The translations under genes were made by a program, and so were the position numbers. A DNA stretch of 64,000 nt, from IMG/VR virus record IMGVR_UViG_3300027985_000627, positions 23,319 to 87,318 of that record, one strand, 5' to 3'. The DNA is from a virus. A model generated the notes under the pieces. It was not told the DNA's origin. It made no database searches and saw only the letters and a list, made by a program, of their open reading frames with translations. Within the stretch, counting starts at the first letter, position 1. Each line of letters starts with the position of its first letter. Shown here piece after piece: positions 49,217 to 63,651 of the stretch.

Positions 49217-50870
49217 CTTTGGTCTTTTTTCGAAGCTTGGGCTTTTCTTTTGCGTCATTCTTTTCCACCTTCTTCTCCGTAGTTCCGGAAGTTTTAGAAG
49301 GTTCACCCTCAGCTTTTTCTTGGGACGTTTCCTGATCCACTTCAGGAAGCAATTCCGGAAAACGCTTTTCTTCAGAAGCAGCCAGCAAACGCTCTCTGCG
49401 ATAATTCCTGAAACCCATTTTCTTGGCAAGAGATTCGTTGGATATACCGAGCGTTTTGTTCAAAGAGCCGTGTTTGACACCGAGAAGACCCTTAGCACGA
49501 CCTTCGTAGTCGGAAACTTCAGAAGAAGGAAAGTCCACGTACACAAGTTCGTACGGTTCTTTCTTCACTTTCTTGAAAACCGGTTCTTGATCCTTGTAGT
49601 CAATGCACTCTTCCACAGTGTACGTCTTAGCAATCGCGCCAGCTTCAGCAGCCAAGAAAAGAATGGGTCGGTACATATCCATAATGAGAAAACGACCGAA
49701 ATACGCGCAAAGGTCACTTACTCGGTCACTCTGCGGTCCGCGAGAAGCTTTGACAGAAGCGAACGTACCTTTCGATTGACCAGTAATAACGTCCTCAGGA
49801 GCATTCAATCCAGACGTTACCATGTGCAAGATGTCTGTATCAGCTTCAGATATTTTGGGAAGCTGCGGATTCTTCACTTCGATGTCAATACCAGGAGGAA
49901 GAATAAGCTGACCACCAGGAACCTTCTTCGACATAATACCAGTTTTCTTTCTGTCTTCATCCGAAAGAGAAAGCCACAAACGAAATGCTTTAGGATCCTG
50001 CATCTTAACGACCCACAAATAAGCTCCGCTGGCTTTCTTGTGGTCGATTTCGTATTGCTTCAAGTTTTCGTAGAAGTTCACCCATTTGATGATGGTACGG
50101 AGATGGGAAAGATTTCGGCCGGTAAACAATCCACGATCCCATTGAATAACAAACTGCTTGAAACCGTTGAACTTCTTGTACATCCGTTTAGGAGAACGAC
50201 TGGGCTTAAACAATTCAGCATTGAACTGCTGGTGTTTAACAACCCATTCATCCCAAAGTTCCGGGTAATACGCGAGATAGATAGACGGAATGAACTGATG
50301 GTTATTACCAAACTCACCGTCGTTATCCTGAAAGCTGTAGAACAACGGCATGTTGGCCTTACGAGGGTGACACACAATACCGTCGTTCTGTGATTTACCT
50401 ATACCAGTGACAGTACCAGGATCACGAAAATCCACTTCAACAAAACCATCATCATGTAAAGTGAGAACAAGATAAAGCTCGCCTTCAACAAGACCACGTC
50501 CAAAATGCTTCGTGTGATTTGTATACAGATTGTTTCGAGGGTCGTTAGCAATCTTTTTGAGGTAGTTGTTGAGTTCGTATATGTCGCTGGAGATTTCGAA
50601 ACCGTCTCCGGTAACTCTTCCTATAGTGTCCCAAACACTAGTATGAACCTGTGGTGAATCAAGAAATTTGTTCCAACATTCATTCTGAATCTTTTGGAAT
50701 GTGAGACTATTCACACCAGTACCACGACCAATCGTGATAGTGAACCCATCTTCGTCCACTTCTGTGGTAGGAGCAGAAGGTGTGGTTTGCCAAGGAAAAG
50801 AGAATCCTATCTTGGTGAGGACGTCTTCCGGAAGGAGGTCCAAGAGTTCAACTTTTTCTTCCTGGTTCAT
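49206..50870 (-). CDS. portal protein
   Basis: 554 aa between TerL and protease; G...GE.Y, PG..L.LPPG, SGLN.P. Confidence 0.8.
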   Translation of the reverse strand: MNQEEKVELLDLLPEDVLTKIGFSFPWQTTPSAPTTEVDEDGFTITIGRGTGVNSLTFQKIQNECWNKFLDSPQVHTSVWDTIGRVTGDGFEISSDIYELNNYLKKIANDPRNNLYTNHTKHFGRGLVEGELYLVLTLHDDGFVEVDFRDPGTVTGIGKSQNDGIVCHPRKANMPLFYSFQDNDGEFGNNHQFIPSIYLAYYPELWDEWVVKHQQFNAELFKPSRSPKRMYKKFNGFKQFVIQWDRGLFTGRNLSHLRTIIKWVNFYENLKQYEIDHKKASGAYLWVVKMQDPKAFRLWLSLSDEDRKKTGIMSKKVPGGQLILPPGIDIEVKNPQLPKISEADTDILHMVTSGLNAPEDVITGQSKGTFASVKASRGPQSDRVSDLCAYFGRFLIMDMYRPILFLAAEAGAIAKTYTVEECIDYKDQEPVFKKVKKEPYELVYVDFPSSEVSDYEGRAKGLLGVKHGSLNKTLGISNESLAKKMGFRNYRRERLLAASEEKRFPELLPEVDQETSQEKAEGEPSKTSGTTEKKVEKNDAKEKPKLRKKTKDGA

Positions 50871-50891
50871 ATATGTTTCCTATGATTTAGG

Positions 50892-50920
50892 CGGTTACAA
50901 ACCATTTCAAATATTGTCAA
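50892..50920 (-). promoter_or_regulatory. candidate promoter upstream of portal
   Basis: TTGACA-N17-TAACCG in the intergenic gap. Confidence 0.35.
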
Positions 50921-50929
50921 GCAAAATTT

Positions 50930-52765
50930 TTATGCGGGCAACGATTCGTTTGAATAGAACGAACCAAAGTAAACAGAACCACCAATAGGACGAAAATCGT
51001 CCTGTGTCAAAGTCCGTCCACCAAATACGCACCAAGCAAGAGCGTACATGGTGTCATCCTGTATACCGTTCTTTGTGTTCTTCTCAGGCGACCCGTAGAA
51101 CTTCTTGTGTGCGTCATGGTCAAGCATTTGAGCTTCTTCGTAAAGGATATTGGGTCCTTTTGTGCCAGGAACTACTACTTCCGGACACTTAATACGCCCG
51201 GTTTTGTACAAATTGAACACTTCGGTGAATGCTGTTTTCTGCTTTTCGTAAGACGGATGGACAAGCTCGTACTTTATTCCGTTTTCGTCACACCACGGTT
51301 CCAAGTCGAACATAGCCCATCTTTCACTGCAAATTGTCTCAATTGTTCCGTATTCATCGCGCATCCGCTGCAATTCCAGTTTAATATCTTCCAAAGTGCT
51401 TGTTTCCACGTGACAAACGTTCAAAATGAAGTACACGTAGTTCGGTGCGCCAGAGCGTTCATTCGTCTCAAATTTCGTACTTTTGCTGCCAGGAAGCCCT
51501 TTTGCGACAGCAACAATCATGGTTCTAGCGCCCACTTCCATGTCTTTTTTCGTAGGATCCGCACGGTCAATACCCACGGAAATAGCAAAATCGGTGTCGT
51601 ATCTGTCAGATAATTGCTTCAAATCGTGTGCGGAAGCCATAGTTGGTATACCAAAACCATCTTTTAACGAGTATATTTCTTCAATTGGGATCAATCTCCG
51701 AAGGATTTCACGCACTTGCGAGTCTTCTTTCATCGTATCCTGGTGTTTATTCTTCAGTCCTTCGATTGTTTGACCCAATTCGTACTTTTTATGCAAAGCC
51801 TGCTGTATTTGTGCTTCTCCACCAAGCATTCCATCAATTCCGATGTACCCAAGACTCTCAATCATGGGAACAGTGAACAGTTTGCCGACACCGACGCTCC
51901 AAGTGTTCAGGAAGTACCTTCTGAAGTCTTCAGGTAAGAACTTGGAACGGTATGACGACAACTGCTTCTGCGTCATATTCGGGTGCCAGTAATCTTTATA
52001 GTGGCCGTTCAAGCTGTAGCGATAATGGAAGAACAAGGACGGGTCTTCACCGCTCTTGTACGTTTCATAGAGCTTGTAGAGTATGTGATTTTTCTCAGAA
52101 ACAGTGGAATCTATCGTACCAAGGGCATTGGGGATGTTTCTGATGGAACCGTCAAGCTGTGTATAGAACTTCGGATTCTTCATGTCGAAGATTTCCGAGA
52201 ACGTGTATCCGGTGATGTTCGAAACGATACCTGAGAAAGAAGAAATGGGTCGGATAAACGAGACAGTTTCACCTTTCCTATTCTTCATGCGGATTTCTTT
52301 TTCTTGAATGTTCTTCTTTCCAAGGATTTTGACCAAACGTGGGGAATTCAAGATTGTGTCGCGCATGATATCGAAGTGAACAAACTTGGTCTGGTCTTTA
52401 GAGTTCGCACCAAGGACGATCATTTGCTTAGGCCAGCAAAAGAACTTCCAAAGCTGTATGAGAACGACGACCGCAGATTTGCCTTCACCACGAGGCCAAC
52501 AGAATATAATAAGACGATGCAGAAAACGTCCGTTTTCGTCCATCTGCAAAGCTTGACGGAGAACATACTTCTGTTCGTCCCAAAAATCCTGGAAGCTTCT
52601 TCCTGTTTCAGGATCAAGATCATCAGGCAGCGAGTGCATAGGCACCCACTCAGGAATCAATTTGCCAGGGGGAGTCAACGGGATGTAGAGGAAGTCTTCG
52701 CACCACTGAATGAATCCATCACCACCGTTTCTGTAAACCGAGATATCTTTGATTTGATTCGGCAT
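50930..52765 (-). CDS. terminase large subunit
   Basis: WPRGEGKS Walker A, A...DQ, ST coupling motif, GIDRA and QDD..YA nuclease acidic residues. Confidence 0.87.
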   Translation of the reverse strand: MPNQIKDISVYRNGGDGFIQWCEDFLYIPLTPPGKLIPEWVPMHSLPDDLDPETGRSFQDFWDEQKYVLRQALQMDENGRFLHRLIIFCWPRGEGKSAVVVLIQLWKFFCWPKQMIVLGANSKDQTKFVHFDIMRDTILNSPRLVKILGKKNIQEKEIRMKNRKGETVSFIRPISSFSGIVSNITGYTFSEIFDMKNPKFYTQLDGSIRNIPNALGTIDSTVSEKNHILYKLYETYKSGEDPSLFFHYRYSLNGHYKDYWHPNMTQKQLSSYRSKFLPEDFRRYFLNTWSVGVGKLFTVPMIESLGYIGIDGMLGGEAQIQQALHKKYELGQTIEGLKNKHQDTMKEDSQVREILRRLIPIEEIYSLKDGFGIPTMASAHDLKQLSDRYDTDFAISVGIDRADPTKKDMEVGARTMIVAVAKGLPGSKSTKFETNERSGAPNYVYFILNVCHVETSTLEDIKLELQRMRDEYGTIETICSERWAMFDLEPWCDENGIKYELVHPSYEKQKTAFTEVFNLYKTGRIKCPEVVVPGTKGPNILYEEAQMLDHDAHKKFYGSPEKNTKNGIQDDTMYALAWCVFGGRTLTQDDFRPIGGSVYFGSFYSNESLPA

Positions 52766-52767
52766 GA

Positions 52768-53466
52768 TTACACCTCAAAAACTTCGTCAGGCTTCAAACG
52801 GCGTTGAAGTTTCTTTCGGCGTCCAGGAACCGGTTTCTCTTCTTTCTTCTGTTTTCTCTGGCGAGTAAACCAGTCAGCTTTTTCAGCAGCCGCAGCTTCT
52901 TTGCCAGCGGTAGTTTCAGAAGCGTCAGTGTTGTCGAACAAGTTGTCACACCAGTCGGAAGTGTCTTCACCGGTTCCAGCACCAAGGAACTTTTCAAGTG
53001 GTTCGTCAGAAACTGAACCGCGTAAAGAACGAGTAGCAATGGTTATGGAACGAAGGGTTTCACGGATTTCTTTGTAGACAGGATGGATTTTGATTCCACC
53101 TTTTTCAGTAAAGTAGGAAGGAGAATCCAAACCAAGTTCCAGGATTTTGAATTTCACAAGATGTCCATAAAGAGGGACAATGTGCAGACCGATCGTGTTC
53201 ATAATGGAAGGGGTGATCGCCCCAACAGTTTCCATTTCTTCGACAAGGCCTTGGATGATGTTAGACACGTACTTGAACTGAAGAGTACAACGTCCGGTTT
53301 TCTGGTAATGGCATTTTTCTTCGATCACGCACCGTTCACCTTTGCAGTCTTCCACAGCATCCCAAACAACAAGTTGCAAACGTTCTTTACCAACGGAAAT
53401 AGACCCTTTAGTCAAAGCGATGGAACCGAAGTTATTTTTGGTATTGGTAGGGATGTCAACCGACAT
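52768..53466 (-). CDS. putative terminase small subunit
   Basis: GGAGG RBS; immediately before TerL; KIHP motif; Cys cluster. Confidence 0.62.
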   Translation of the reverse strand: MSVDIPTNTKNNFGSIALTKGSISVGKERLQLVVWDAVEDCKGERCVIEEKCHYQKTGRCTLQFKYVSNIIQGLVEEMETVGAITPSIMNTIGLHIVPLYGHLVKFKILELGLDSPSYFTEKGGIKIHPVYKEIRETLRSITIATRSLRGSVSDEPLEKFLGAGTGEDTSDWCDNLFDNTDASETTAGKEAAAAEKADWFTRQRKQKKEEKPVPGRRKKLQRRLKPDEVFEV

Positions 53467-53490
53467 AAGAACCTCCTTTATGAAAGCACA

Positions 53491-53519
53491 GAAATAGACG
53501 CAGAAAAGGAGCGTGTCAA
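53491..53519 (-). promoter_or_regulatory. candidate promoter of the packaging/structural operon
   Basis: TTGACA-N17-TATTTC upstream of the terS RBS. Confidence 0.4.
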
Positions 53520-53677
53520 GCATGGGCAGGAAACTTATTTGTAGTGTCTTACGGACAGCGTTTCATGATTAACAACGTGTGTTGTGTCTCATACGTGAGA
53601 AACAAACGCGGGAAGTGTCTCTGGAGAAGCGTGGAAACGTGTTTATACTCTGATACTATGAAGAAAAAGGAGCCAGT

Positions 53678-54671
53678 ATGACAGATGAAGAATTGATGCG
53701 GGAAGCTTTGTCGCTTTGCGGAAAAAACGGAGCACATCTTTTATATCTCACAAGGTTTGGTTCAGAACTCTACGGAACGAACACGATCAATTCCGACACG
53801 GACGCGAAAGGAGTGTTCCTCCCTAACCTCGATGATTTGATCTTGGGAAAAGCTCCGAAGAACTTAATCTACAAAACATCGGATAACGGTGAAAGAAACA
53901 CCAAGGACGATGTGGACATAAACCTTTGGAGTTTGCAGTATTGGTTGGAGTTACTCCAGAAAGGTGACACCAATGCCATCGACTTGCTTTTCTCTTACAA
54001 CAGTCCAAGCATGATTTACTGTGTCAACGGTTTGGAATACATGATGGAAGAAAACTACGGAAAATTCTACAGCCCGAAAAATCTTTCAGCGTACACGGGT
54101 TACATCATCGGACAAGCTAAGAAATACGGAGTCAAAGGTTCTAGGCTTGGTGTTATTAAAAGAGTCTACGAATGGTTGGACGAAAACATAACCGTTGGTA
54201 GACTGGAACACTTCATGGATGCAATCCTGAAGGAATGCGGAGAACCTTCGTATTGCTTTGAAAAAGAAGTGAACAACCAACGGTCGGTAATCTTATGCGG
54301 CAAAGTCCACCAAGGCACAATCCAGATGGACGAGTTTAGGGATAGGATTCAAAAGGATTATGAAGGTTACGGAGAAAGAGCAAGATTGGCGGAACAGAAT
54401 GAAGGCATAGACTGGAAAGCTTTAAGTCATGCGGTGAGGTGTATCCACCAAATGACTATGCTCTTGAAAAATGGCAGAATAGTGTTTCCGCTGAAAACGT
54501 CGGAATACTTAAAGCATATCAAACAAGGCAAAAGTCTCTTGGAAAGACGTTGAAAGGATCATGATTGATGGGTTGGAGCAGGTGCAAAGGCTTCAACAAG
54601 AATATCCGAAGGAAAAGGACCAGTTCGACACCAAATTCAGAGACAGTTTTATTTTATCTTGGTATAAGTAA
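53678..54671 (+). CDS. DNA pol beta-superfamily nucleotidyltransferase, apparently frameshifted near the C-terminus (first frame stops at 54553)
   Basis: FGSxLYGT...SDxD, DWKALSHAVR; continuation VSWKDVE...FRDSFILSWYK in the +1 frame after AAAA 54530-54533. Confidence 0.8.
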
Positions 54672-54685
54672 TAAGGAGGGTTGAA

Positions 54686-55222
54686 ATGCAAGATTTCATT
54701 TCTAGGTGTGATAGTTGCGGACAGATTCTGGAACACAGAACAGTTTTGACAAAAAGTGGATTGGAACTCTCGATTGTCCCGTGCGGTCAATGCCACCCAC
54801 CGATTAAGGAGGACGAGGAAGATGGTTGGAACTGGAGCTTCTCATTAAGAAAGAGCAATGGAAATTTGGTAAGACTAGAACCTATCAATGTGAACAACAA
54901 GGGACACTACATCCATTTCCATTCAGACCATCTATTAATAGTAGAGCAACAAGAGAGGCATTGGAAAGAAAAAGCGGAGGCATTGCAGAAAAGACTGGAA
55001 AAAGAAGAAAAAGTTTTGTGGTCATGTCTTTCTTGCAAGCATTGGATATTCAATGATGATTTCGAAGATTGCGGAGACTACAAAAGCTGCAAATTGACGG
55101 AAACGTACTCCCAGGTTTCGCAAGTTCCATTCCCGAAAGCAAAAAGCATGAGTAGGATCGGTGGAAGCATCCTTTTAACCAAATACGATTTCTGTTGTAC
55201 CAATTACGAAAAGAAGGAGTAA
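54686..55222 (+). CDS. Cys-rich hypothetical protein
   Basis: GGAGG RBS; CxxC...CxxC and C-terminal CxxCKH...C...FCC..YE. Confidence 0.65.
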   Translation: MQDFISRCDSCGQILEHRTVLTKSGLELSIVPCGQCHPPIKEDEEDGWNWSFSLRKSNGNLVRLEPINVNNKGHYIHFHSDHLLIVEQQERHWKEKAEALQKRLEKEEKVLWSCLSCKHWIFNDDFEDCGDYKSCKLTETYSQVSQVPFPKAKSMSRIGGSILLTKYDFCCTNYEKKE

Positions 55223-55362
55223 GAAGATGAACAGTCCGTATGCTACGACATGGGCAGAACATATCTTGTATGATCTTGATAGGTGGCGTATGCGGATAGC
55301 AATGTCCTTCATGTTTCTAATTTTGTACGGACATATGAACGTAGACGATTAGGAGGAATAAC

Positions 55363-56037
55363 ATGGAAAAGCCGCCGTTAGGATTGAAACCGAGGTATGT
55401 TCACGACGATCAAAGGATAACAGAAATCCTGGAAGCTATGAACAGGTATGTGACAAGCAATCAAAGAATGAAGATTCCACATGAATGGACAAAGGAACTG
55501 GGAGACTTGCTCATGAACAGGGATGTAAAGGAGGAGCAAAAGGAAGAAAAGGTGAACATACTTGGAGTGCGTTGCCAGACATGTAAACACGCGGATTTGG
55601 ACGTTGAAGGTGATAGGAAGTTTTCTTGGTGTGGTTGTAAGTTAATGAAAACAACGGACGGAGACCGTGGAGGAAACACGTTGGCTTACGCACAAGGTGT
55701 TGGTAGGACTGGAGGAAGAGTGAGGGTAAACAAAGACTTCGGTTGCATCCAGTACGAAGAAGAACAAGGCGTAAAGGTAGAGGAGTTTCATAACTGCGTA
55801 GTGAAGTTCGGGAAAAGTCCGAAAATGTATTACTATAAAACCTTGGACGATGATATTGAACAAGGAGAGTACGTCCTGGTGCAAACTGTTAACGGTCCTA
55901 CCTGCGCTATGTTCGTAAGGTATCTGGATACGGAGTCTGTGGTGGATGAAAGAAGCATATCAAAGGCAACGAAGTGGTTGATTAGTTCGGTTCAATGTCT
56001 GATTGACGATCTGCCAGTAAGACTTAAAAACCTTTAA
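55363..56037 (+). CDS. multi-domain hypothetical protein
   Basis: GGAGG RBS; KPPLGLxP N-domain, CxxCKH...C...FGC..YE, SH3-like C-domain. Confidence 0.68.
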   Translation: MEKPPLGLKPRYVHDDQRITEILEAMNRYVTSNQRMKIPHEWTKELGDLLMNRDVKEEQKEEKVNILGVRCQTCKHADLDVEGDRKFSWCGCKLMKTTDGDRGGNTLAYAQGVGRTGGRVRVNKDFGCIQYEEEQGVKVEEFHNCVVKFGKSPKMYYYKTLDDDIEQGEYVLVQTVNGPTCAMFVRYLDTESVVDERSISKATKWLISSVQCLIDDLPVRLKNL

Positions 56038-56057
56038 TCTCCACATAACGTAAGAAT

Positions 56058-56094
56058 GAAAAGGTCCTGGTTAACGCTGGGTCTTTTCTTTTGG
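56058..56094 (+). terminator. probable terminator
   Basis: Imperfect GAAAAGGTCC/GGGTCTTTTC stem followed by a T-tract. Confidence 0.45.
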
Positions 56095-56112
56095 GTTACG
56101 TATGCGTTGATG

Positions 56113-56183
56113 AAAATTATTAAGGAGCGGATTGGGTACACAGGTTTTATTTTCCATACAAAAAATTATTAAGGATCGGATTG
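56113..56183. repeat. 22-bp direct repeat pair
   Basis: AAAATTATTAAGGA(G/T)CGGATTG at 56113-56134 and 56162-56183. Confidence 0.85.
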
Positions 56184-56301
56184 AGCAGAGGAATCCTAAA
56201 ATCCACGAAAAAAATTGTGAGGGGGTACGGCACACACACTCAATAGACAAAACGCAAGATAAAACAAGGGGGTCTATATTAGATTGTCTATAGATTGAGA
56301 C

Positions 56302-56338
56302 AAAAGAAAAAGCGCGCATCGTGCAGACTGCGCGCTTT
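56302..56338 (-). terminator. intrinsic terminator with alternating-GC stem
   Basis: AAAGCGCGCA-N10-TGCGCGCTTT; U-tract on the - strand. Confidence 0.8.
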
Positions 56339-56352
56339 GAGTGAACGTGAAG

Positions 56353-56817
56353 CTAAATTTTTCTGAGCGAGAGAACTTGAGCAGAAACAAGAGTCTTTGA
56401 CTTGTTGAGCGAAAGCTTAATCTTGTCGCTCTCTTCGCGCTTCAAATGCGAGATATGCTGAAGAACTCTCTCGCGCGAGCATTCACACAACTGCGCGATA
56501 TCTTCGACGCTTTGAACGTCGTGTGCAATCGCGCTTTCGATCAAATAGCTTTGAGTGAGAAAACGCGCATTCGTGAAGTATTTGACATATTCGCGTTCAG
56601 TTCTTCTCACTCTCACATTCGACGCTTCTCGCTGTTCGATTTCTTCGCGCTTCAAAACTTCTTCACGTTCGAACGCTTCAGCAAGTTCGAGCGTAGAAAG
56701 ATTGCTTGAATTGATAGAAAGAAAAAGATTCAAAATTGCAAGCGTTTGAAAGCTCGAAAAATCAATCGCGCTGTTTTCTTCAATAATTTCGACGTTCTTC
56801 TGATTGTTCTTTTGCAT
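56353..56817 (-). CDS. winged-HTH protein lacking Gly, Pro and Trp
   Basis: TQSYLIE...SVEDIAQLCECSRERVLQHISHLK, paralogous to 3092 and 63046; AGAGAG-type RBS. Confidence 0.75.
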   Translation of the reverse strand: MQKNNQKNVEIIEENSAIDFSSFQTLAILNLFLSINSSNLSTLELAEAFEREEVLKREEIEQREASNVRVRRTEREYVKYFTNARFLTQSYLIESAIAHDVQSVEDIAQLCECSRERVLQHISHLKREESDKIKLSLNKSKTLVSAQVLSLRKI

Positions 56818-56870
56818 GACGTTTCTCTCTTTTAGTTGATTGTTCGTTGAAATAGTTGACTATTTTACGT

Positions 56871-57035
56871 TTACTCGAAAAATCTTGCGCGCTTTTCACG
56901 AATGCGCTTCAATTCTTCTTCAAATGCTCTTTGCTCTTTTTCATCAAATTCATTGTCGATTAATGAAAACTGAGCAAGAAAGCGTCTTTTGTCATAATAC
57001 GCTTTGAACGTGTTTTCTGTCTGCGTCTTTTTCAT
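56871..57035 (-). CDS. 54-aa charged protein lacking Gly, Pro and Trp
   Basis: GAGGGGG RBS; MKKTQTENTFKAYYDKRRF... Confidence 0.62.
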   Translation of the reverse strand: MKKTQTENTFKAYYDKRRFLAQFSLIDNEFDEKEQRAFEEELKRIREKRARFFE

Positions 57036-57059
57036 CTTTTCCCCCTCGTTTTTGTCTGA

Positions 57060-57087
57060 ATAGTACGCTTGCAAAAAATCTTTTCAA
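57060..57087 (-). promoter_or_regulatory. sigma70-like promoter for the GG-free operon
   Basis: TTGAAA-N16-TACTAT, about 12 nt before the RBS. Confidence 0.6.
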
Positions 57088-57117
57088 TCCCCGCACGAAA
57101 AAATATTTTAAGCGTCG

Positions 57118-57308
57118 TTCGTGTTACTATTCGTTCAATTCGTGTTACTCAAAATCGTATGCAATTCGTAACACGTTTTTTCAATTCGTTACATGTATGT
57201 ACATACATGACACAAAACACGAATTCGTGTTATTTGCTCAAAACGTAACACGAATTTTGAAAAAGTATCGTATGCAATTCGTGCTACGAATTCGACGAGG
57301 CGTGTTAC
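57118..57308. repeat. array of AATTCGTGTTAC-like boxes and palindromes
   Basis: About 8 copies in both orientations; perfect palindromes at 57192-57209 and 57216-57231. Confidence 0.85.
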
Positions 57309-57312
57309 TGCG

Positions 57313-58350
57313 AGGCAGGCAGGCACGAATACATGCAGACTACACAATACGTTCGCACACAGCACGGATCGGACAACTGTCCAGATGAAACTCTATGTTG
57401 CCTGGTCCTGCGGCAGGTACGCGCATAGAGGGAGGTCTGTGTCGCCTGAAATTCAGCCTTGCTCGGCACCTGCCTACCGATCGTTCTACATAGTCAACGT
57501 GAATCATCTATCGCAATCTCTGTTTCCTTTCGTTACCGATTAGCCTGACGTTAACCTTCAATGCCTGTACAGTCTGATTCTGTTTGTTGAATCATCATTG
57601 CCTAAACCTAATAGGTGGATCCTAGGATCCACCGGATAAACCTAACTTAAAACCGTAGCCTGCCTGTATGTGTGCAAATCAAAGGTTGTGATCCGTGGTT
57701 TACTATTCTGTTTTGTTTAGCCGACGATTCTATATGCCTACCTGCCTTTGTGTGATTTTATCTGTCGGATTTACGCCGGCAGAATTTTATTCGGTTTTTT
57801 CGAGATTCCCTCTTGCGTTTGAAAATACAAAATTCTGCCAGACCTTTGTTTGGATGAATTTTGTTCTGTTTTGTTTAATCCACGGTTTTCCTGCCTGTAT
57901 GTGTGTATTTAGAAAAGTTCAATCGGATCAACGAAAGACGAATTCCAGCCTTTCGTAAAAATAAATAACCGTAATAAAATCAACGAATGGTTGATTTTCA
58001 GCCTGCCTGTGTGTCTTTCTGTTTGTCTTCTTTTTAATTTTAAATGCCTTCGGATAATGTTTTTCTTAAGGAAATCACGAAAGTTCAGGTATGTAAAAGC
58101 AGGGAAGTAATCAAGGGTAATGTAAACCGAGGCAGGTAGGCATATAGAACCACGGACATGCACGGCAGAATATTATTCTTTCACCCCTTCTGGGATTTCT
58201 CAAAATTTGTTCTGGCTTTTTAACAAGGATAAGAATTTTATTCTGCCGTATGCTGAAACACAGAACGCGAGGCAGGCAGGATTATAGGTCCGTACGCTGA
58301 AAATACTTAGCCGTAGCCCCTGTGGCTGCACCATAGACACGTAGGCAGAA
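57313..58350. repeat. dispersed CCTGCCT/GGCAG repeats and inverted repeats
   Basis: About 9 copies; 20-bp perfect IR 57728-57747/58130-58149; 20-bp palindrome 57614-57633. Confidence 0.8.
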
Positions 58351-58969
58351 AGGATTGATTGTATCCGTAGGTTAAGGATTAATGGTTAGGTACACAGGTT
58401 ATTATTTTCACAGTGAGGGCCCTAGGTGTCGCCTAAACGCAGGAACCCTTTGTTTCACAAGGGTTCGTGTATATCCACAGGACCGAGAAAATATTTCGTC
58501 CATGCGCGAGGGGAGGCAAATCTCCACCCCTTTAACCAGCATATATCTCCTCCCTTTGTTTACGCACATTCTCTTATCTACCAACACACTCCGATGAATT
58601 CAATTTATCAACCAAATACACATCCTTATCTTTGTTTCTTAACCATATCTTAATTTCTTCCATACGTAATCAATCGTAGTCTTCTTTGTTCTTTCTTCTC
58701 CTTTCTCATTTTTTCTTTATCCGTCGGTTTACTCCTTATTTCTTTCTTCTCCTCTTTTCTTACTTTTTCCTTAGATTTTCTTATTCCATCGGTTCCTCCT
58801 ATAGTTATAGCGTCGTTCTTGTTTTTCTCGTTTTTTACTGGAACTTATCCTCGGCAATAAATCCATGAATTTCCCTTCATTATCCACTTTGTAGTATTCT
58901 CATTCCTTGCTATTCGTGCGACAATGTATTTAGTCGAAACCGATCATTGAAAACTGATTATCCGAGATA

Positions 58970-59810
58970 AAACTTCTCTTTGTTGGGAGTTTAAATTTGA
59001 TTGCGGCGGATTCTGATTATCCTTCATTTGTTTTTGTGTCCTTCATTCTCTCTTGATTTTCTGCTATCGAAGTCTTCTCCGTGGATTCGGAGGTGGGTAA
59101 TTCTTTAGTAGAGAATATCGGAGCGGATCTCGTAGTAGGCAGACAGAACTGCTGAAGACTGCTTGGAATGCGTGTCAAATCTTCTGGCCAGGATTGCTTG
59201 TGTTCTGGACTTCTTGAAACCGATAAGGATCTCTGATCTGGGAAAGGATTTTCAAGAAGGATGCAGGAGCCAGAGGAATACTAGGTTCTACTCGGACGGC
59301 GCGCTGAGAAGTAGCTGAGGTCCAGGATCCACGTAGAGGGTTTAGGGAACATGAATCGGAGACTGCAATCAAATGCCTTGATGACGAACAATCAGGGTCT
59401 CGGTATTCTTTGACAATTGAGGCTCCGATCGGATCGGAGTGGGAAGAACATTTTGTTTGAATCTGGCTGTCAATTCTAAATAAGAAGGCAAGTCCAGTTT
59501 CTTGTGTTCTTCTGCTTTTTAGGACGCGCATCGCACATGCTTTTGTTCTCCAGGGCTTGTTTTGTCAAAATGAGGCGGAGAGAGCAATGACGGTTATAAT
59601 TCGCGTTTTAAAAAGAAATCTTGTTTTTTCTTGGCTTGAAATTCCCGGACCTTCTTCAGCAAAGACTTACCAGGGCAACTTCGCTAATTGCTGGAATGAT
59701 TTCTAATAGAACCTAGGAATGATTTCAGGGATGGCGGATCTTTGCTGTCGTGGGAATTTCAAGCATTTTATCAAGGAGTCGGGGTTTTCTTGATTCTTTG
59801 ATAAGATAAC
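58970..59810 (+). ncRNA. candidate large structured RNA
   Basis: Many nested helices with G-U pairs on the + strand; no credible ORF. Confidence 0.55.
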
Positions 59811-59856
59811 TATTTAGGATCTTTACTTTTCTTTTCACTTCAACGGGAGGTTTTCT

Positions 59857-60042
59857 GTGTCGAAGAACGATCAGAAATTTATGGGAAATTGGGAGGTTGT
59901 TTTTTCTGTGCCTCCTGGTAAAAAATCTGTTTCTAGGAAAAAGAAATTTCACGAGGAAATCGTTGTGCGCCGTGGAGAACAGATTATTTCTCGTAGGCGG
60001 CGTTCGAAGATGGGTCGGTGGATCCAAACGAAGGAGGTTTAG
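59857..60042 (+). CDS. small basic hypothetical protein
   Basis: GGGAGG RBS before GTG. Confidence 0.5.
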   Translation: MSKNDQKFMGNWEVVFSVPPGKKSVSRKKKFHEEIVVRRGEQIISRRRRSKMGRWIQTKEV

Positions 60043-60141
60043 GATGAGATTTACTGGGTATTTTAATCATACGGAACTTTATCTTTCTTTAGAGTTGAAG
60101 AGATTCAACTGGAACTTGCTTTGCGCATTTGGACATTAATT

Positions 60142-60351
60142 ATGAAGGCTATTATTACAAGGCAAAACAAAGACGGATCCTACGACGATTGTGGGATGAA
60201 CAATCGTTTCCTTACTGGTGAATACAAAACTTTGAAAGGATTGTTTCGTTACGGTGTTCCTAAACATAAAGGCGTTTATCGCGTGGAAGTGTTTTACGGA
60301 GACAGCATCTACGGAGAACCGTTTTGTGTTAAATATATAGAACGGTTTTAA
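60142..60351 (+). CDS. hypothetical protein
   Basis: ORF in the early gene run. Confidence 0.55.
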   Translation: MKAIITRQNKDGSYDDCGMNNRFLTGEYKTLKGLFRYGVPKHKGVYRVEVFYGDSIYGEPFCVKYIERF

Positions 60352-60361
60352 AGGAGGCGTT

Positions 60362-60748
60362 ATGTACGGCATAGAACTGAATTGCGAAGACGGACGCATG
60401 GTTCTTTGCGAAACCGGTGGGTTTGCTTTTCTTGAGGACCCACTCTTAGTCGTCGAAAAGTTTCCCACGAAGGAAGAAGCTGAGGAGACGGTCAAAGAGT
60501 TGAATTTGCAGCACAATTCGATGAAGGACCATGTGGATAATCCACACATGTACTTCAGGGTTTTCGAATTGACGGAAGAGGACATGAGACGCGGACAAGA
60601 CATCGACGACTTGGGTTGCTGTCCGAAGTGCGGTTCGAAAAGTGATCCGATTTTCGGCGCTGGCTTCCCGGGTGAAAGCTTCTGTATGTGTCCGGACTGC
60701 GGCTACGTCGAAGCAGACATTGAAGAACCAACGGAGAACATGATTTAG
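60362..60748 (+). CDS. hypothetical protein with C-terminal Zn ribbon
   Basis: AAGGAGG RBS; CPKCG...CPDCG. Confidence 0.68.
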   Translation: MYGIELNCEDGRMVLCETGGFAFLEDPLLVVEKFPTKEEAEETVKELNLQHNSMKDHVDNPHMYFRVFELTEEDMRRGQDIDDLGCCPKCGSKSDPIFGAGFPGESFCMCPDCGYVEADIEEPTENMI

Positions 60749-60757
60749 GAGGTCGTC

Positions 60758-60925
60758 ATGAGAGCGGTTGAAAACTTGTTGAAAATGGCTAAGGACCGTG
60801 GTTTGTCTTTGAGAGAAACTTGGAAGCTGGTAAAGATAGCTTTCCCGAACAGGGAACATAGAGCGATTGCTTGCAATTGCTTACGAATAGGAAGAGAAGA
60901 AAAGCAGATCCTTCTCGGCAATTAG
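60758..60925 (+). CDS. 55-aa hypothetical protein
   Basis: AGGAGG RBS; MRAVENLLKMAK... Confidence 0.55.
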   Translation: MRAVENLLKMAKDRGLSLRETWKLVKIAFPNREHRAIACNCLRIGREEKQILLGN

Positions 60926-60936
60926 AAGGAGGTTTT

Positions 60937-61368
60937 ATGAAAAACCAGAAATTAGGTTTGTATCAAACGTTCAAATGGCACCGTCGTATGTGGAGATGGG
61001 TATCCAAAGATGCGTGTAGGTCAAAAGCAGATTGGCCTGGTTGGATTAAACGTTTGCCGGGATTAGCTTGTCCCGGTTACATAGTGATTGGAAATTTGAA
61101 AAAAACAATACAATACGGTTGTTTTTTCTGCCAATACGATTTCGAAAATACGGAATATGATTGTGCGGAATGTCCAGTTGATTGGAAAACAACTTCTGCT
61201 ACTAAAAAATCATTTTCTTGTGAAGGACCGGGTTCTTTTTACACCATTTGGAAAGATTTTTTCTCGCCAAGTAGTATTGTTTCTTACAAACATATATTGG
61301 AAGAAAAGGCTATGAAGATAGCTTGTATGGCTCCGAAAAAATGGAACTACGGCAAGTATAGCTGGTAA
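60937..61368 (+). CDS. Cys/Trp-rich hypothetical protein
   Basis: AAGGAGG RBS; HRRMW.W, CFFCQY...C..CP..W. Confidence 0.68.
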   Translation: MKNQKLGLYQTFKWHRRMWRWVSKDACRSKADWPGWIKRLPGLACPGYIVIGNLKKTIQYGCFFCQYDFENTEYDCAECPVDWKTTSATKKSFSCEGPGSFYTIWKDFFSPSSIVSYKHILEEKAMKIACMAPKKWNYGKYSW

Positions 61369-61468
61369 AGTCTACGGACAGATGAAGGAGGGCCGAGGCT
61401 TTGTGCTTCGGCCCTCCCCTTGTGTTCATAGACACATTGGAATAACTTGTAATTGTAAGGAGGCTATC

Positions 61469-62047
61469 ATGGCTGACACGGAACGCACCCCGAAGCAAGA
61501 GCAGCGCAGGATGGCGGAAAAAGCGAAAAAGGCTACGAACGCTCGCCGCAGCAAAGAAAAGAAATCGAAGAATCAGGAAAAGGTCCAGATGCCCACGCAG
61601 GATGCCAAAAGGCAGTCATTCAACCTGAAGGAGTTCCTCACCGGCAAACGTTGCTTGGTGGTCACGTACGCCGTGGACAAGCGCGACAAAGAGGCGTGTT
61701 TGTCCAAGTGGGCGTTCGAACTGTCCGAGTCGTGGTTCGATTGGCGCCCGCAGGAAGAAGACCCCTTTTGGGCTAAGGAGATCGCTTTCTACATCGAAAA
61801 TCCCGGACAAGACAGCGAACGCCGCCATGTCTACATTCGCAACGGCGGGCGTTGGCGCGCTGTTTTCTGGATGGGTAAGTGGTACGTGTACGACGCTTAT
61901 CAGAAAGACTTGCAGGCGCACATCAAGGATGTTCTTCTGGCCGAAAACTCCGATAAGGTTCCGGATCTGTTCCCCATCGTCTGGGGTGAGTTCCCCGAGT
62001 GCATGAAGCACCGCTCGGCGGATGATTACCTCAAAACCGTTCGATAG
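61469..62047 (+). CDS. hypothetical protein
   Basis: AAGGAGG RBS; GC-rich codon usage. Confidence 0.68.
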   Translation: MADTERTPKQEQRRMAEKAKKATNARRSKEKKSKNQEKVQMPTQDAKRQSFNLKEFLTGKRCLVVTYAVDKRDKEACLSKWAFELSESWFDWRPQEEDPFWAKEIAFYIENPGQDSERRHVYIRNGGRWRAVFWMGKWYVYDAYQKDLQAHIKDVLLAENSDKVPDLFPIVWGEFPECMKHRSADDYLKTVR

Positions 62048-62133
62048 ACAGATAGGAGCCTGGAGGCAACTCTAGGCTCCAATTGTGTTTACCGGCAAAA
62101 GGTTGAAAACTTGTAATTTCAAAGGAGGTTACT

Positions 62134-62487
62134 ATGGGAACACCGGCTTCAATATCGGTGGACTTGGGAGATGGTCAGATCATCTCTGTATACCAACACT
62201 TTGATGGTTATCCGAGCTACACTGAAGATATCCTGAATAAGTTCTTCAATTCCAAAGAAAAAGCTCTGGAACTTGTAAACGGCGGAGACATTTCCTCGAT
62301 TACTCGGCAAGGACAAGTCAAATACTACGCCAAGCGTAGCGAGTGGGAAGAAGGACACGAAAACGAACCGTGGAACAAAGTGAAACCGGAAGAATCAGCA
62401 TCGTTCCAAGGTGTTAAAAACAAGTTTGATGGTGTGGATTACCACTACGTTTTTAAAGACGGAAAATGGGAGGTTCATCGTGGATAA
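62134..62487 (+). CDS. conserved phage hypothetical protein (YxHxDGYP family)
   Basis: MGT...SVYQHFDGYP...GDISS...YxY.F..G.W. Confidence 0.72.
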   Translation: MGTPASISVDLGDGQIISVYQHFDGYPSYTEDILNKFFNSKEKALELVNGGDISSITRQGQVKYYAKRSEWEEGHENEPWNKVKPEESASFQGVKNKFDGVDYHYVFKDGKWEVHRG

Positions 62488-62928
62488 AGAACTTGTCATA
62501 ACGAAAGAACATATCAGGAACTTCAAACAATTCATCGAACCGAAAACATTTGATCGGGCAGGGATTGTTATTCGTGGACGTGGAAAAACTGCTCTGTTAG
62601 AGTTTTTCGGGGAAGATCCTACGAACGGATGGCGTACATCGTCGAAGCTGTCTGCTACGGCTGTGAAAAGAAGATAGCCGATTACGTCGGCACCTTCTAC
62701 AGGTACGATACGCACCACGAGGCTTCGATTTTTGCTTTTCTGAAAGTCGGAGACATAATTCGGATTGAATTCTACTCCGATTACGGAACCACTGAGTTCT
62801 TGAAAGAACATGGTCATGGCGTGGACGCTTGCTTGATCCACATCAAAAGAAAGAAAAAACGGCACCAACTGTTGTTCGGAACGCAAAGCTATACCGACAA
62901 AAAGTACCGACTCGTAAGAGAGGGGTGA
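62480..62928 (+). CDS. two overlapping ORFs (62480-62677, 62629-62928), possibly one frameshifted gene
   Basis: GGGAGG RBS before GTG 62480; the second ATG lacks a clear RBS. Confidence 0.4.
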
Positions 62929-63045
62929 CTATGTGGGTATCAAAACGATTGATGGTTTTTGCGGCTGAGAAATTCCCGAACTGGCGAGACAGCTACAACT
63001 GGATGTGGTGGGTTCATATGGAAATTTTAGAAAGGAGATACAATC

Positions 63046-63651
63046 GTGGCTAAGAAGAACGAGAGCAAGGTGGTGAAGAAGTCGGAAAAGAAAATCGAAA
63101 CCAACAACAAAAAGAACAAGGAGTCGAAGGAAATGAAGAACAACCCTGATATGCTGAATGCAAAGACTTCGGAAGAAAAGATTGAAACACCCGAAGTCGA
63201 AAAGGTGGAACCCATCTTGACGAAGCCGGAACCCATCGAAACGTTCTGCGGCACGGACTTCGACGCCGACCCGCAGGGAACGTGTTTCGCGGCGTGTATG
63301 AACGAGATGCCGGACGAGTTCAATCGCTGTCTCGCTCACTATGAGGCGTGTAAAGCGTTTACGTCGAAGGGAGGGGCAGGCCGCAAGCGCCAGAAGGGTA
63401 CTACGAGCAAGGTCGTTGATGATCGCTACTACAGGCTTGCTAAGTGGGAACACAACAAGAAGTCCCAGGCGGCGATCATCGACCACCTGCTTGAGGACGG
63501 TGTGTTGTTCACGGCTGAAACTCTCGGCGAAGCGTTGGAAACTCCCGCTACTCGAATTAACGCCCACATCTACCACTTGCGTAAGATGCACGGCGTGGAC
63601 ATCTTCAAGACTCCCGAAGGGTACTTCTTCTGGGACGGTCTGACTGATTAG
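63046..63651 (+). CDS. protein with charged N-terminus, Cys motif and C-terminal winged-HTH
   Basis: AAGGAG RBS; SQAAIID...TAETLGEALETPATRINAHIYHLRK. Confidence 0.7.
   Translation: MAKKNESKVVKKSEKKIETNNKKNKESKEMKNNPDMLNAKTSEEKIETPEVEKVEPILTKPEPIETFCGTDFDADPQGTCFAACMNEMPDEFNRCLAHYEACKAFTSKGGAGRKRQKGTTSKVVDDRYYRLAKWEHNKKSQAAIIDHLLEDGVLFTAETLGEALETPATRINAHIYHLRKMHGVDIFKTPEGYFFWDGLTD

What the first reader, a model, noticed from the sequence alone, without database searches (positions are those of the whole stretch)
56273..57298. A complete transcription unit written without GG/CC: promoter, two genes lacking Gly/Pro/Trp, and terminator
Seen: no GG or CC in 56273-57040 (768 bp). At roughly 40% GC, tens would be expected, and they are common everywhere else. 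The depletion continues to 57298 apart from the SD run (57041-57045) and one run beside the -35 box (57089-57092). Both proteins lack Gly (GGN), Pro (CCN) and Trp (TGG), although the HTH paralogs at 3092 and 63046 use Gly and Pro. The terminator stem is GCGCGC and one RBS is AGAGAG, so selection acts on the DNA on both strands. Inference A: the phage DpdA/GT system modifies G in GG context, and this immediate-early unit must stay unmodified so host RNA polymerase can read it or it can evade modification-dependent nucleases; its products then license expression of the modified genome. Inference B: it is a PAM-free zone (type I-F CC or Cas9 NGG) or restriction-site-free leader protecting an anti-defence gene plus an Aca-like HTH. 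Either would be an undescribed sequence-encoded safe zone.
Basis: partly seen in the sequence, partly recalled or inferred. Interest (0 to 1): 0.95.

Follow-up and report, generated by a model that had tools for sequence, protein, structure and literature searches.

The report
GG/CC-free early gene cassette in phage
A small regulatory operon of an uncultured 87-kb phage, and its counterparts in most related phages, is written without the two-letter DNA step GG/CC, so its proteins lack glycine, proline and tryptophan, which suggests that some still unidentified factor reads that short word on double-stranded DNA.

Summary
Window 56272-57040 has no GG/CC (about 72 expected). It is the only such stretch in the 87,318-bp genome.

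It is not chance, chimera or decay:
- An independent 62.7-kb Logan contig spans it.
- 18 of 38 relatives with at least 2.5 kb upstream of the terminase gene have a strict island at the same place.
- At least 6 more ban only some GG words there: YGG, GGD, GGB, or YGG plus GGT.
- In one close pair, 120 island differences created 2 GG/CC where about 21 were expected.

The island is a hypervariable cassette. It holds a sigma70-like promoter, small protein(s), a winged-helix-like regulator, a terminator and operator repeats. It lies between the early genes and the packaging genes.

Selection acts on the duplex, not on RNA, codons or mutation. My best guess (0.4) is a safe zone like the T5 first-step-transfer region, hidden from a nuclease-type reader. 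The main rival (0.3) is a unit kept free of the phage's own DpdA guanine modification.

My searches found nothing like it in print. Earlier unchecked AI notes of this scan report the same phenomenon in at least 14 other genomes.

The parts
56272..57040 (.). Core island: 769 bp with no GG or CC on either strand
   Evidence: gap of 770 with about 72 expected. It is unique in the 87-kb genome.
57046..57298 (.). Extension of the depleted zone over the promoter and operator array. The only GG/CC is CCCC at 57089-57092.
   Evidence: positions listed; sequence.
56353..56817 (-). 154-aa gene for a winged-helix-like DNA-binding protein (C-terminal SQ..IE..A / RVLQHISHLKRE helices); no Gly, Pro or Trp
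   Evidence: Pfam and PHROG hits lie below threshold. There is one homolog among 1.84 billion representatives: P0122, 53% identity, no Gly or Trp, 2 Pro. Atlas leads all point to HTH or winged-helix families, with scores under 0.9.
56871..57035 (-). 54-aa gene of unknown function, highly charged (12 D+E, 14 K+R); no Gly, Pro or Trp
   Evidence: No Pfam or PHROG family.
57041..57045 (-). GGGGG Shine-Dalgarno of the 54-aa gene, the first tolerated exception
   Evidence: The same exception (GGGG before ATG) occurs in relative L055.
56824..56830 (-). AGAGAGA ribosome-binding site of the 154-aa gene, a GG-free substitute for a Shine-Dalgarno
   Evidence: Read.
57060..57087 (-). Sigma70-like promoter TTGAAA-16-TACTAT
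   Evidence: 9 of 12 matches, not above chance on its own. In relatives, an exact TTGACA is the best -35 in 10 of 21 5' flanks.
56308..56340 (-). Intrinsic terminator: GCGCGCA/TGCGCGC stem followed by a T run on the minus strand. The island ends about 28 nt beyond it.
   Evidence: Read. The scan tool did not list it; I read the loop as 10 nt, beyond the tool's 3-8 limit.
57100..57300 (.). Array of operator- or iteron-like boxes (TTCGTGTTAC type) and palindromes, upstream of the promoter
   Evidence: families D4, D12; inverted pairs I6, I10.
56206..56231 (-). Copy of the family's conserved element just outside the island edge nearest the packaging genes (CCCCCtcacaattttttt). It may be a pac/cos site or the late promoter.
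   Evidence: aligned boundaries of 14 loci; in G002, two exact copies 49 bp apart and none elsewhere in 90.6 kb.
57299..60100 (.). Context: a 2.8-kb GG/CC-rich stretch with dispersed direct and inverted repeats. No ORF over 118 aa lies within it.
   Evidence: D2, D5, I2. No Rfam family reaches its gathering score. Relatives also have GG/CC-rich repeat-bearing flanks there.
50930..53523 (-). Context: the large terminase (50930-52765) and a 251-aa gene in the small-terminase position (52768-53523). The cassette lies upstream of these in every relative.
   Evidence: weak PHROG terminase hits.

Best explanation
The stretch is a self-contained early transcription unit. It holds a sigma70-like promoter, a 54-aa protein, a 154-aa winged-helix-like regulator, a terminator and an upstream operator array. 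It sits where the early genes and the packaging/late genes diverge. It is this phage's version of a hypervariable cassette found at the same place in most members of an uncultured family of roughly 90-kb siphophages that encode DpdA.

Shown: the cassette is under ongoing purifying selection on the double helix against a short GG-containing word. Here that means every GG/CC. In some lineages it is only YGG, GGD, GGB or DGG. The rest of the genome is unconstrained.

Inferred: a factor that reads this word on double-stranded DNA would cut or block the unit. The unit must work before, or regardless of, whatever protects the rest of the genome. This makes it a blind spot analogous to the target-free first-step-transfer DNA of phage T5. 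The cassette would be the first DNA exposed beside the packaging site. The cassette products (a regulator plus small, often acidic proteins) would then set up the infection.
For: Selection at the DNA level:
- There are zero GG/CC in coding DNA (all frames and codon junctions), in non-coding flanks and on both strands.
- 21 pooled islands (17,153 bp) show all other dinucleotides at 0.92-1.43 times the flank level.
- L011 versus L009: 120 differences in 649 island positions created 2 GG/CC, where 17.8% of random substitutions (about 21) would. The gene itself shows 28 synonymous and 15 non-synonymous codon differences.

Family-wide and tied to one place:
- 18 strong and 4 weak islands occur among 38 loci with at least 2.5 kb upstream of TerL.
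- The downstream control (610 kb) gives 1 hit.
- G000, G002, G003 and G006 each hold exactly one island.

The word differs between lineages:
- L008/L020: TGG/CCA 0 seen against 51/48 expected, CGG/CCG 2/0 against 22/20, and AGG enriched.
- L113 and L003: GGA/TCC 0 against 52/33, and GGC enriched 2-4 fold.
- L070: only GGA is allowed.
- Codon use follows the word. In L113, 15 of 15 Gly codons are GGC. In L008/L020, 13 of 13 Pro codons are CCY and there is no Trp.
- No island is free of a word that lacks GG.

Cassette behaviour:
- Three protein subfamilies occur, in both orientations.
- 89% identity between L042 and L046 resumes exactly at the island edge.
- The island is 18.5% diverged where the adjacent packaging genes are 2.8-4.7% diverged.

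Early and first-exposed setting (all of this is inference):
- Exact TTGACA is the best -35 in 10 of 21 5' flanks.
- A unique conserved repeated element lies between the island and the small-terminase position.
- A repeat-rich non-coding stretch lies on the other side.
- Linearised at that element, the gene order would enter the cell in the order early, middle, late.
- T5 precedent: restriction-modification, CRISPR and Ssp systems act on T5 only through sites in the first-step-transfer DNA (passages of PMC10644984).
- There is no genome-wide depletion (GG and CC observed/expected 0.97), as expected if only this zone is exposed.
Against: - The physical genome ends, the order of DNA entry and the timing of expression are all unknown. 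The assembly is circular by an 86-bp overlap inside a repeat gene, and the Logan contig runs straight through the region.
- The host is unknown. Relatives are binned with many phyla.
Every banned word found contains GG. That points to one conserved reader, possibly phage-encoded.
- The exceptions (a GGGGG Shine-Dalgarno, and CCCC by the -35) would be PAMs or targets.
- No homology to any anti-defence or Aca family was found.
- About 8-10 of 38 relatives show no island of any kind.
Confidence: 0.4

Rival explanations
1. A modification-free expression unit. The family's own DpdA-type enzyme exchanges G within a GG-containing word whose flank specificity drifts between lineages. This one unit has to be read from virion DNA by unmodified host machinery, or its regulator-operator circuit has to be independent of modification state, so it carries no modifiable site.
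For: - A DpdA homolog was found in 6 of 10 relatives' records. The four without one are 24-67% complete fragments.
- queD and queE are shared by G000, G002, G003 and G007.
- Every banned word is centred on G-G and varies only in one flanking base. That is how an enzyme's specificity drifts.
- Known phage DpdAs read 2-3-nt contexts: GA and GGC in CAjan, with GGT/GGTT slightly raised (passages of PMC7544227).
- A conserved phage-encoded reader would explain why no word without GG is ever banned.
- A reader that acts at every site in every infection would explain a complete purge.
Against: - The closest characterised DpdAs (31-39% identity) target GA (iggy, abstract listed) or GA plus GGC. GA/TC is not avoided in islands (ratio 0.92).
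- G007 (98% complete, DpdA present) has no island of any word in 86 kb.
- The glycosyltransferase and T-fold genes are shared only with G007.
- GGCC and CCGG are among the most under-represented 4-bp palindromes genome-wide (observed/expected 0.41-0.80). That is not what protected sites would show.
- All other genes, including two paralogous regulators, carry GG freely.
- I know of no reason why coding DNA must be unmodified, and my searches found no precedent.
- In L113 and L003 it is GGC, the CAjan motif, that is allowed and enriched.
Confidence: 0.3
2. A physical or chemical property of GG/CC-free DNA is selected. Examples: no GG hot spots for guanine oxidation, with damage drawn to G runs at the edges; or no G-clusters that could seed R-loops or G-quadruplexes in a heavily used control region.
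For: Island edges are enriched in long G or C runs. Runs of 4 or more occur at 10 of 42 boundaries, against 3.5% of all runs in the same loci (binomial p 1.4e-6). The constraint is symmetric between strands and covers non-coding DNA.
Against: The lineage-specific exemptions are hard to derive from chemistry: GGC allowed in L113/L003, GGA in L070, AGG/GGG in L008/L020. The cost of a single GG would be very small, yet selection removes about 19 of 21 expected new ones. The rest of the genome is unconstrained.
Confidence: 0.08
3. The constraint acts on RNA. Sense and antisense transcripts of the unit must both lack GG, or GG and CC, to escape a ribonuclease or an RNA-binding repressor such as a RegB-like GGAG cutter or a CsrA-like GGA binder.
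For: The island roughly matches a transcription unit that ends about 28 nt past the terminator. The unit occurs in both orientations in relatives.
Against: The 206 bp upstream of the promoter are just as empty. Both GG and CC are absent from the one mRNA strand. This phage and L055 tolerate an exception at GGGG(G) inside the mRNA leader itself. Every banned word is absent together with its reverse complement.
Confidence: 0.07
4. A mutational footprint. A cytosine deaminase coupled to transcription or to single-stranded DNA, with CC preference, has erased CC/GG locally.
For: Islands have lower G+C than their flanks (33.6% against 40%). The footprint is limited to a transcription unit and hits both strands.
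Against: The expected products are not enriched: CT/AG 1.05 and TC/GA 0.92 times the flank. CG (1.22x) and GC (1.43x) are enriched instead, and in this window by 1.89 and 1.77 over expectation. Allowed GG words are enriched 2-4 fold in partial lineages. The genes stay open under purifying selection. Homology breaks sharply at the island edge.
Confidence: 0.04
5. An artefact: an assembly chimera or foreign insert whose composition is unrelated to the phage's biology.
For: The 154-aa protein has only one homolog.
Against: A 62,695-bp Logan contig covers window 50000-63926 with 0 differences, although it probably comes from the same sample. The same feature sits at the same place in dozens of independently assembled relatives.
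Confidence: 0.01

Closest known systems
First-step-transfer (pre-early) DNA of phage T5 and relatives
   Same: It is a small early segment with host-type promoters, followed by a large repeat-rich untranscribed stretch. Host restriction-modification, CRISPR and Ssp systems harm T5 only through target sites inside this segment, so the absence of sites there decides survival (passages of PMC10644984; abstract of bioRxiv 10.1101/866236 listed).
   Different: The T5 segment is about 8-10 kb inside a terminal repeat, and its two-step entry is shown by experiment. It shows no blanket purge of a 2-3-bp word and no loss of amino acids. In this phage, ends and entry are unknown, the segment is 0.6-1.5 kb, and there is no sequence homology.
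Motif avoidance in phage genomes (restriction-site avoidance; depletion of the CC PAM in Pseudomonas aeruginosa phages targeted by type I-F CRISPR-Cas)
   Same: The same word (CC/GG) is read on double-stranded DNA, and selection removes it (abstract and impact statement of PMC12174588).
   Different: That depletion is genome-wide and statistical. Here it is local and complete, and the rest of the genome is at observed/expected 0.97. The word also changes flank between lineages.
Phage DpdA 7-deazaguanine modification with short sequence contexts (CAjan: GA and GGC; iggy: GA)
   Same: A phage-encoded enzyme acts on G in a 2-3-nt context. A DpdA homolog is present here and in 6 of 10 relatives' records.
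   Different: My searches turned up no report of a modification-free island. The known main motif, GA, is not avoided here. The modification and its motif in this family are unknown.
acr-aca operons (anti-CRISPR genes with an HTH autoregulator). This comparison rests on my recall, not on a call.
   Same: Small, often acidic proteins lie next to an HTH-type regulator behind a strong promoter with repeats, at a hypervariable locus.
   Different: There is no homology to any described family and no functional test. As far as I recall, known acr loci are not described as PAM-free.
Immunity (imm) regions of lambdoid phages. This comparison rests on my recall, not on a call.
   Same: A regulator and its operators form a non-homologous block with sharp edges between conserved flanks.
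   Different: No k-mer purge is known there. A lysogenic lifestyle is not indicated here; I saw no integrase or repressor family, but I did not search for them systematically.

Membership tests
T5-type first-step-transfer region | Lies at the DNA end that enters the cell first, inside a terminal repeat | not testable with these tools
   The assembly closes on itself by an 86-bp overlap in a repeat gene. Only contigs were available, not raw reads.
T5-type first-step-transfer region | Followed by an injection stop region rich in repeats and palindromes | tested here: inconclusive
   A 2.8-kb repeat-rich stretch in which I saw no ORF over 118 aa adjoins the island. Relatives have GG/CC-rich repeat-bearing flanks there. 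Its function is unknown.
T5-type first-step-transfer region | Free of the target sites of DNA-cutting defences | tested here: met
   It is free of all GG/CC words. It is not free of sites such as GCGC, TCGA or GAATTC.
acr-aca operon | Sequence membership in a described Acr or Aca family | tested here: not met
   No Pfam or PHROG family reaches threshold for the window's two proteins or for 8 island proteins of relatives. No dedicated Acr library was available.
acr-aca operon | Small genes together with an HTH regulator, behind a promoter that carries repeats | tested here: met
   This is architecture only.
DpdA-modified DNA (island as the unmodified part) | A DpdA and preQ0-pathway genes are present | tested here: met
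   The DpdA ORF at window 5714-6613 matches annotated phage DpdAs. queD- and queE-like ORFs are conserved in G002, G003 and G007.
DpdA-modified DNA (island as the unmodified part) | The enzyme's target motif equals the banned word | not testable with these tools
   No native-DNA reads were available. The homologs' motif GA is not avoided.
CRISPR PAM depletion | The host carries a system with a CC or NGG PAM, with spacers against the phage | not testable with these tools
   The host is unknown. Binned relatives carry labels from about ten phyla.
CRISPR PAM depletion | Depletion across the whole targeted genome | tested here: not met
   GG and CC are at observed/expected 0.97 genome-wide.
Winged-helix / HTH regulators (Pfam HTH_11 and relatives) | A Pfam match above the gathering score | tested here: not met
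   HTH_11 gives E 0.13 and 12.7 bits against a cut-off of 25. Atlas feature and structure leads are all HTH or winged-helix but score under 0.9, with TM at or below 0.5.
Invertible DNA segment | Inverted repeats flanking the segment | tested here: not met
   The best flanking inverted repeat equals the shuffled controls in 21 loci. The window's 12-nt pair AAAACRAGGGGG is the only one above its control maximum.

The most novel reading that the evidence does not exclude
These phages carry, or always face, an undescribed factor that reads a 2-3-bp GG word on double-stranded DNA at essentially every site in every infection. It could be a DpdA-type base exchanger or a frequent-cutting nuclease. Its flank specificity evolves quickly: all GG, YGG, GGD, GGB or DGG. 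The cassette would be a genetically encoded blind spot for that factor. If so, the factor's specificity could be read directly from a genome sequence by finding which word the cassette lacks. The same logic might operate in unrelated phages and phage-plasmids, as this scan's earlier unchecked notes suggest.
Probability: 0.4. Interest if true: 0.93.

Novelty: new variant of a known kind. Interest (0 to 1): 0.86.

Why it matters
A DNA-level rule strong enough to remove three amino acids from proteins, or to force every glycine codon to be GGC, is an unusually clear footprint of selection.

It reveals a reader of very short DNA words that nobody has identified.

This turns an open question into a testable one: what does the first-expressed DNA of a phage have to hide from? 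One can compare the banned word with modification motifs, termini, CRISPR spacers and PAMs, and with nuclease specificities.

If it is a defence or a host-DNA-degrading nuclease, they would point to a new enzyme class with 2-3-bp specificity. They would also suggest a design rule for phage engineering.

Tried and rejected
- **Translation-level cause** (loss of tRNAs for Gly, Pro, Trp). Rejected, because codon junctions and about 388 bp of non-coding DNA are equally empty.
- **Deamination footprint.** Rejected on dinucleotide products.
- **Invertible segment.** No consistent flanking inverted repeats.
- **Islands free of another dinucleotide, or of a trinucleotide without GG.** None was convincing. 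The GAA/TTC gap in L112 lies in an AT-rich non-coding repeat region.
- **Link to the glycosyltransferase.** Rejected.
- **A core cytosine methyltransferase.** None among the 19 different proteins scanned against Pfam.
- **Known RNA family in window 55000-64000.** Only one sub-threshold hit.
- **Homologs of the 154-aa protein.**
  - The word-index search found only the query itself, 1 of 43 candidates.
  - The exhaustive search found one, P0122.
  - The search for related loci with A1 found none, as did the earlier single-protein scan.
  - A degenerate pattern found nothing in metagenome contigs or viral contigs.
- **Neighbour protein (224 aa) as an anchor.** No relatives.
- **Nucleotide and terminase-protein searches of cultured phages.** No match.
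- **Structure.**
  - The profile search of solved structures gave only repeat-protein noise.
- **Host.** MAG labels of 10 related contigs span many phyla and are unreliable.
- **Expression.** No RNA holder was listed.
- **Read depth or termini.** Only Logan contigs were available, so no depth and no ends.
It shows only a partial depletion at 95.3-96.9 kb (largest GG/CC gap 154 bp) and is not related by terminase or capsid.
- **DUF2786 literature.** Nothing informative in the listing.
- **Searches for prior description.**
  - Searches found DpdA motif papers and a genome-wide PAM-depletion paper, but no k-mer-free island.
  - Supplementary tables of PMC7544227 (per-trinucleotide modification values) were not seen and could bear on GG-context modification.
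Full report
**1. Observation**

Reading the window and counting shows no GG or CC between positions 56271/56272 and 57041, a gap of 770. A further gap of 208 (57091-57299) follows. The two are separated only by CCCCC at 57041-57045 and CCCC at 57089-57092.

The window is the last 64 kb of a single 87,318-bp contig. Genome-wide, GG+CC occur at 0.0935 per position, so about 72 are expected in the core. The next independent gap is 103 bp. None of the other nine strand-symmetric dinucleotides gives anything similar.

G+C in the island is 40.3% against 43.8% for the genome. CG and GC are raised to 1.89 and 1.77 times expectation.

A Logan contig of 62,695 bp covers window 50000-63926 without a single difference. 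It probably comes from the same sample, labelled as a hydrothermal vent metagenome. The junctions are therefore not an assembler's artefact.

**2. Anatomy**

On the minus strand the unit reads as follows:
- A sigma70-like promoter, TTGAAA-16-TACTAT (57087-57060).
- A GGGGG Shine-Dalgarno.
- A 54-aa ORF (57035-56871).
- An AGAGAGA ribosome-binding site.
- A 154-aa ORF (56817-56353).
- A GCGCGCA/TGCGCGC hairpin with a T run (56340-56308).

The island ends about 28 nt beyond the terminator. Upstream of the promoter lie repeated TTCGTGTTAC-type boxes and palindromes.

Neither protein has Gly, Pro or Trp. Neither matches a Pfam or PHROG family at threshold.

The 154-aa protein ends in a helix-turn-helix-like pattern (SQ..IE..A ... 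RVLQHISHL). It shares this pattern with two paralogs in the same genome that use GG freely. Atlas neighbours are all HTH or winged-helix families, but with weak scores.

The genome encodes:
- a 2477-aa tape measure protein;
- a lambda-E-type capsid protein;
- a UDG-PolA fusion, with clamp, clamp loader and primase;
- a queD/queE/folE/DpdA cluster.

Plus-strand early and replication genes run from about 83.4 kb, across the contig junction, to about 49.5 kb. Minus-strand late genes run from 76.8 to 50 kb. The island sits at the point where the two blocks diverge.

**3. Relatives**

The 154-aa protein has one homolog among 1.84 billion representatives. This is P0122, at 53% identity, with no Gly, no Trp and two Pro.

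The large terminase has 815 homologs at E <= 1e-5 among 8000 scored candidates. They are about 50% identical, and many lie on 80-93-kb contigs.

A terminase alignment retrieved 80 loci from IMG/VR, the best of 271 confirmed, and 10 from GTDB genomes.

Scanning all ten dinucleotides showed one signal only. GG/CC-free gaps of 270-1462 bp appear, always upstream of the terminase gene.

Among the 38 loci with at least 2.5 kb upstream, 18 have a strong island, 4 a weak one and 16 none. In 610 kb downstream of the terminase start, only one gap reaches the weak threshold.

In whole contigs, G002 and G003 each have exactly one island. G006 and G007 have no GG/CC-free island.

On a quick terminase tree the trait is clustered but spans deep branches (the careful search did not finish).

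**4. What the islands hold**

Each island carries one to four small genes with no Gly, Pro or Trp.

The main gene falls into three subfamilies, which share the C-terminal R[IV]K[SR]H-type helix. The subfamilies lie in either orientation relative to the terminase.

Accessory proteins are often small and acidic, with net charge -6 to -9 in four of eight examined.

Each island includes roughly 180-500 bp of 5' flank and 20-200 bp of 3' flank. This is my reading of the coordinates.

An exact TTGACA is the best -35 in 10 of 21 5' flanks, where by my estimate about 2 would be expected by chance.

Exceptions inside islands are few. In this window and in L055 they sit at a GGGG(G) Shine-Dalgarno.

**5. 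Selection is ongoing, and the island is a cassette**

In the close pair L011/L009:
- The island differs at 120 of 649 aligned positions (18.5%). The neighbouring packaging genes differ at 2.8-4.7%.
- 17.8% of all possible substitutions would create GG/CC, which gives about 21 expected. Only 2 are seen.
- The gene shows 28 synonymous and 15 non-synonymous codon differences.

In the pair L042/L046, 89% nucleotide identity resumes exactly at the island edge. The interior is unalignable.

Many metagenomic contigs break in or beside the island. I attribute this to strain-level variability, although physical ends are not excluded.

**6. The word differs between lineages**

An earlier AI note on other phages and the PAM idea both prompted a test of trinucleotides. 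Relatives that I had scored as having no island do have islands at the same place that lack only some GG words:

| Locus | Banned words (seen vs expected) | Allowed words |
|---|---|---|
| L008/L020 | TGG/CCA 0 vs 51/48; CGG/CCG 2/0 vs 22/20 | AGG/CCT enriched about 2-fold |
| L113 | GGA/TCC 0 vs 52; GGT/ACC and GGG/CCC nearly absent | GGC/GCC enriched about 2-fold |
| L003 | GGA/TCC 0 vs 33; GGT/ACC and GGG/CCC nearly absent | GGC/GCC enriched about 4-fold |
| L070 | GGB | GGA only |
| L049 | DGG | CGG only |
| L057 | YGG and GGT | |

G006 has one such YGG-free island in 86.6 kb. G007 has none of any word.

Codon use obeys the rule:
- In L113, 15 of 15 Gly codons of the two main genes are GGC.
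- In L008/L020, 13 of 13 Pro codons of the 177-aa gene are CCY, and Trp is absent.

No island lacks a word without GG.

In total, at least 28 of 38 assessable loci carry some form of the feature.

**7. Flanks**

Just outside the edge nearest the packaging genes, subfamily-B relatives and this phage share an element of the type GGaCCtcaCC-ataaatttttt-CCC, sometimes in tandem. In G002 it occurs as two exact copies 49 bp apart and nowhere else in 90.6 kb. That fits a pac/cos site or a single late promoter.

The other flank is GG/CC-rich and repeat-rich.

Island edges are enriched in G or C runs of 4 or more: 10 of 42 boundaries against a 3.5% background. I cannot explain this.

**8. Weighing the explanations**

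Translation, RNA and mutation explanations fail on these points:
- the empty non-coding flanks;
- the symmetry between strands;
- the dinucleotide products;
- the enrichment of allowed words.

What remains is a reader of a short word on the duplex.

*For the phage's own DpdA:*
- It is present in 6 of 10 records searched.
- Its substrate is G.
- It would explain why every banned word has GG.

*Against the phage's own DpdA:*
- The nearest characterised enzymes use GA or GA plus GGC, and GA is not avoided.
- G007 has DpdA but no island.
- The glycosyltransferase does not track the trait.
- GGCC and CCGG are under-represented genome-wide.
- There is no evident reason why coding DNA must stay unmodified.

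*For a nuclease-type reader and a first-exposed zone:*
- The T5 precedent.
- The position beside the packaging genes.
- The host-type promoters.
- The hypervariable small-protein-plus-regulator content.
- The absence of any genome-wide depletion.

*Against a nuclease-type reader and a first-exposed zone:*
- Ends, timing and host are all unknown.
- The GG core is always the same.

I put 0.4 on the safe-zone reading and 0.3 on the modification-free reading.

**9. Novelty**

My paper searches found:
- motif studies of DpdA;
- a genome-wide CC-PAM depletion study;
- the T5 literature.

They found no description of a local, complete purge of a short word.

This scan has noted the same phenomenon before on other DNA, in at least 14 genomes. 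Those are unchecked AI notes. The one cultured example I could test, SSU5, shows only partial depletion.

Noticed in passing
window 57299-60100: A 2.8-kb stretch with no ORF over 118 aa lying within it. It holds dispersed repeats (CGAGGCAGGTAGGCATATAG in 5 copies, CCTGCCTGTATGTGTG in 3) and a perfect 20-nt inverted pair 382 nt apart. Related motifs (CCTGCC..., GTATGTGTATA) recur in the same flank of relatives. It could be an origin, a set of promoters or an injection-stop-like region.
   Followed up: partly
island boundaries in the window and 20 related loci: G or C runs of 4 or more bases sit at 10 of 42 island boundaries, against 3.5% of all GG/CC runs in the same loci (p 1.4e-6). In the window the two edges form an inverted pair, AAAACAAGGGGG / AAAACGAGGGGG.
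   Followed up: partly
genome 987-1697 (before the window; locus L108): A 236-aa early protein with DUF2786 and DUF7168 domains. It has homologs in the island-bearing genomes G002, G003 and G006 but none in the island-less G007.
   Followed up: no
window 18432-20069: A thymidylate synthase ORF of 545 aa carries an HNH endonuclease domain in its middle. This may be an intein or an inserted homing endonuclease.
   Followed up: no
G006 contig 23671-25479 (loci L086/L087): The DpdA homolog of this relative lies in one 608-aa open frame. The two halves of DpdA are separated by about 900 nt of inserted sequence.
   Followed up: no
window 63728-64000 and genome 1-320: The contig closes on itself inside a pentapeptide-repeat gene. 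The first 30-mer recurs at positions 166 and 87233. The Logan assembly breaks there as well.
   Followed up: partly
window 8332-10932: The DNA polymerase A carries an N-terminal uracil-DNA-glycosylase domain.
   Followed up: no
window 53678-56037: Three plus-strand genes, the first an RlaP-type nucleotidyltransferase, are inserted between the island and the small-terminase position. None has a homolog in G002, G003, G006 or G007, and in the relatives mapped the island lies closer to the packaging genes.
   Followed up: partly
genome 7338-9356 (locus L108): A 672-aa protein of unknown function (phrog_1735, E 1e-258). It is about 49% identical to proteins of Caulobacter phiCbK-like phages and matches 560 phage records, although the terminase has no match among cultured phages.
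   Followed up: no
all five whole contigs: GGCC, CCGG and CTAG are the most under-represented 4-bp palindromes (observed/expected 0.41-0.80).
   Followed up: no
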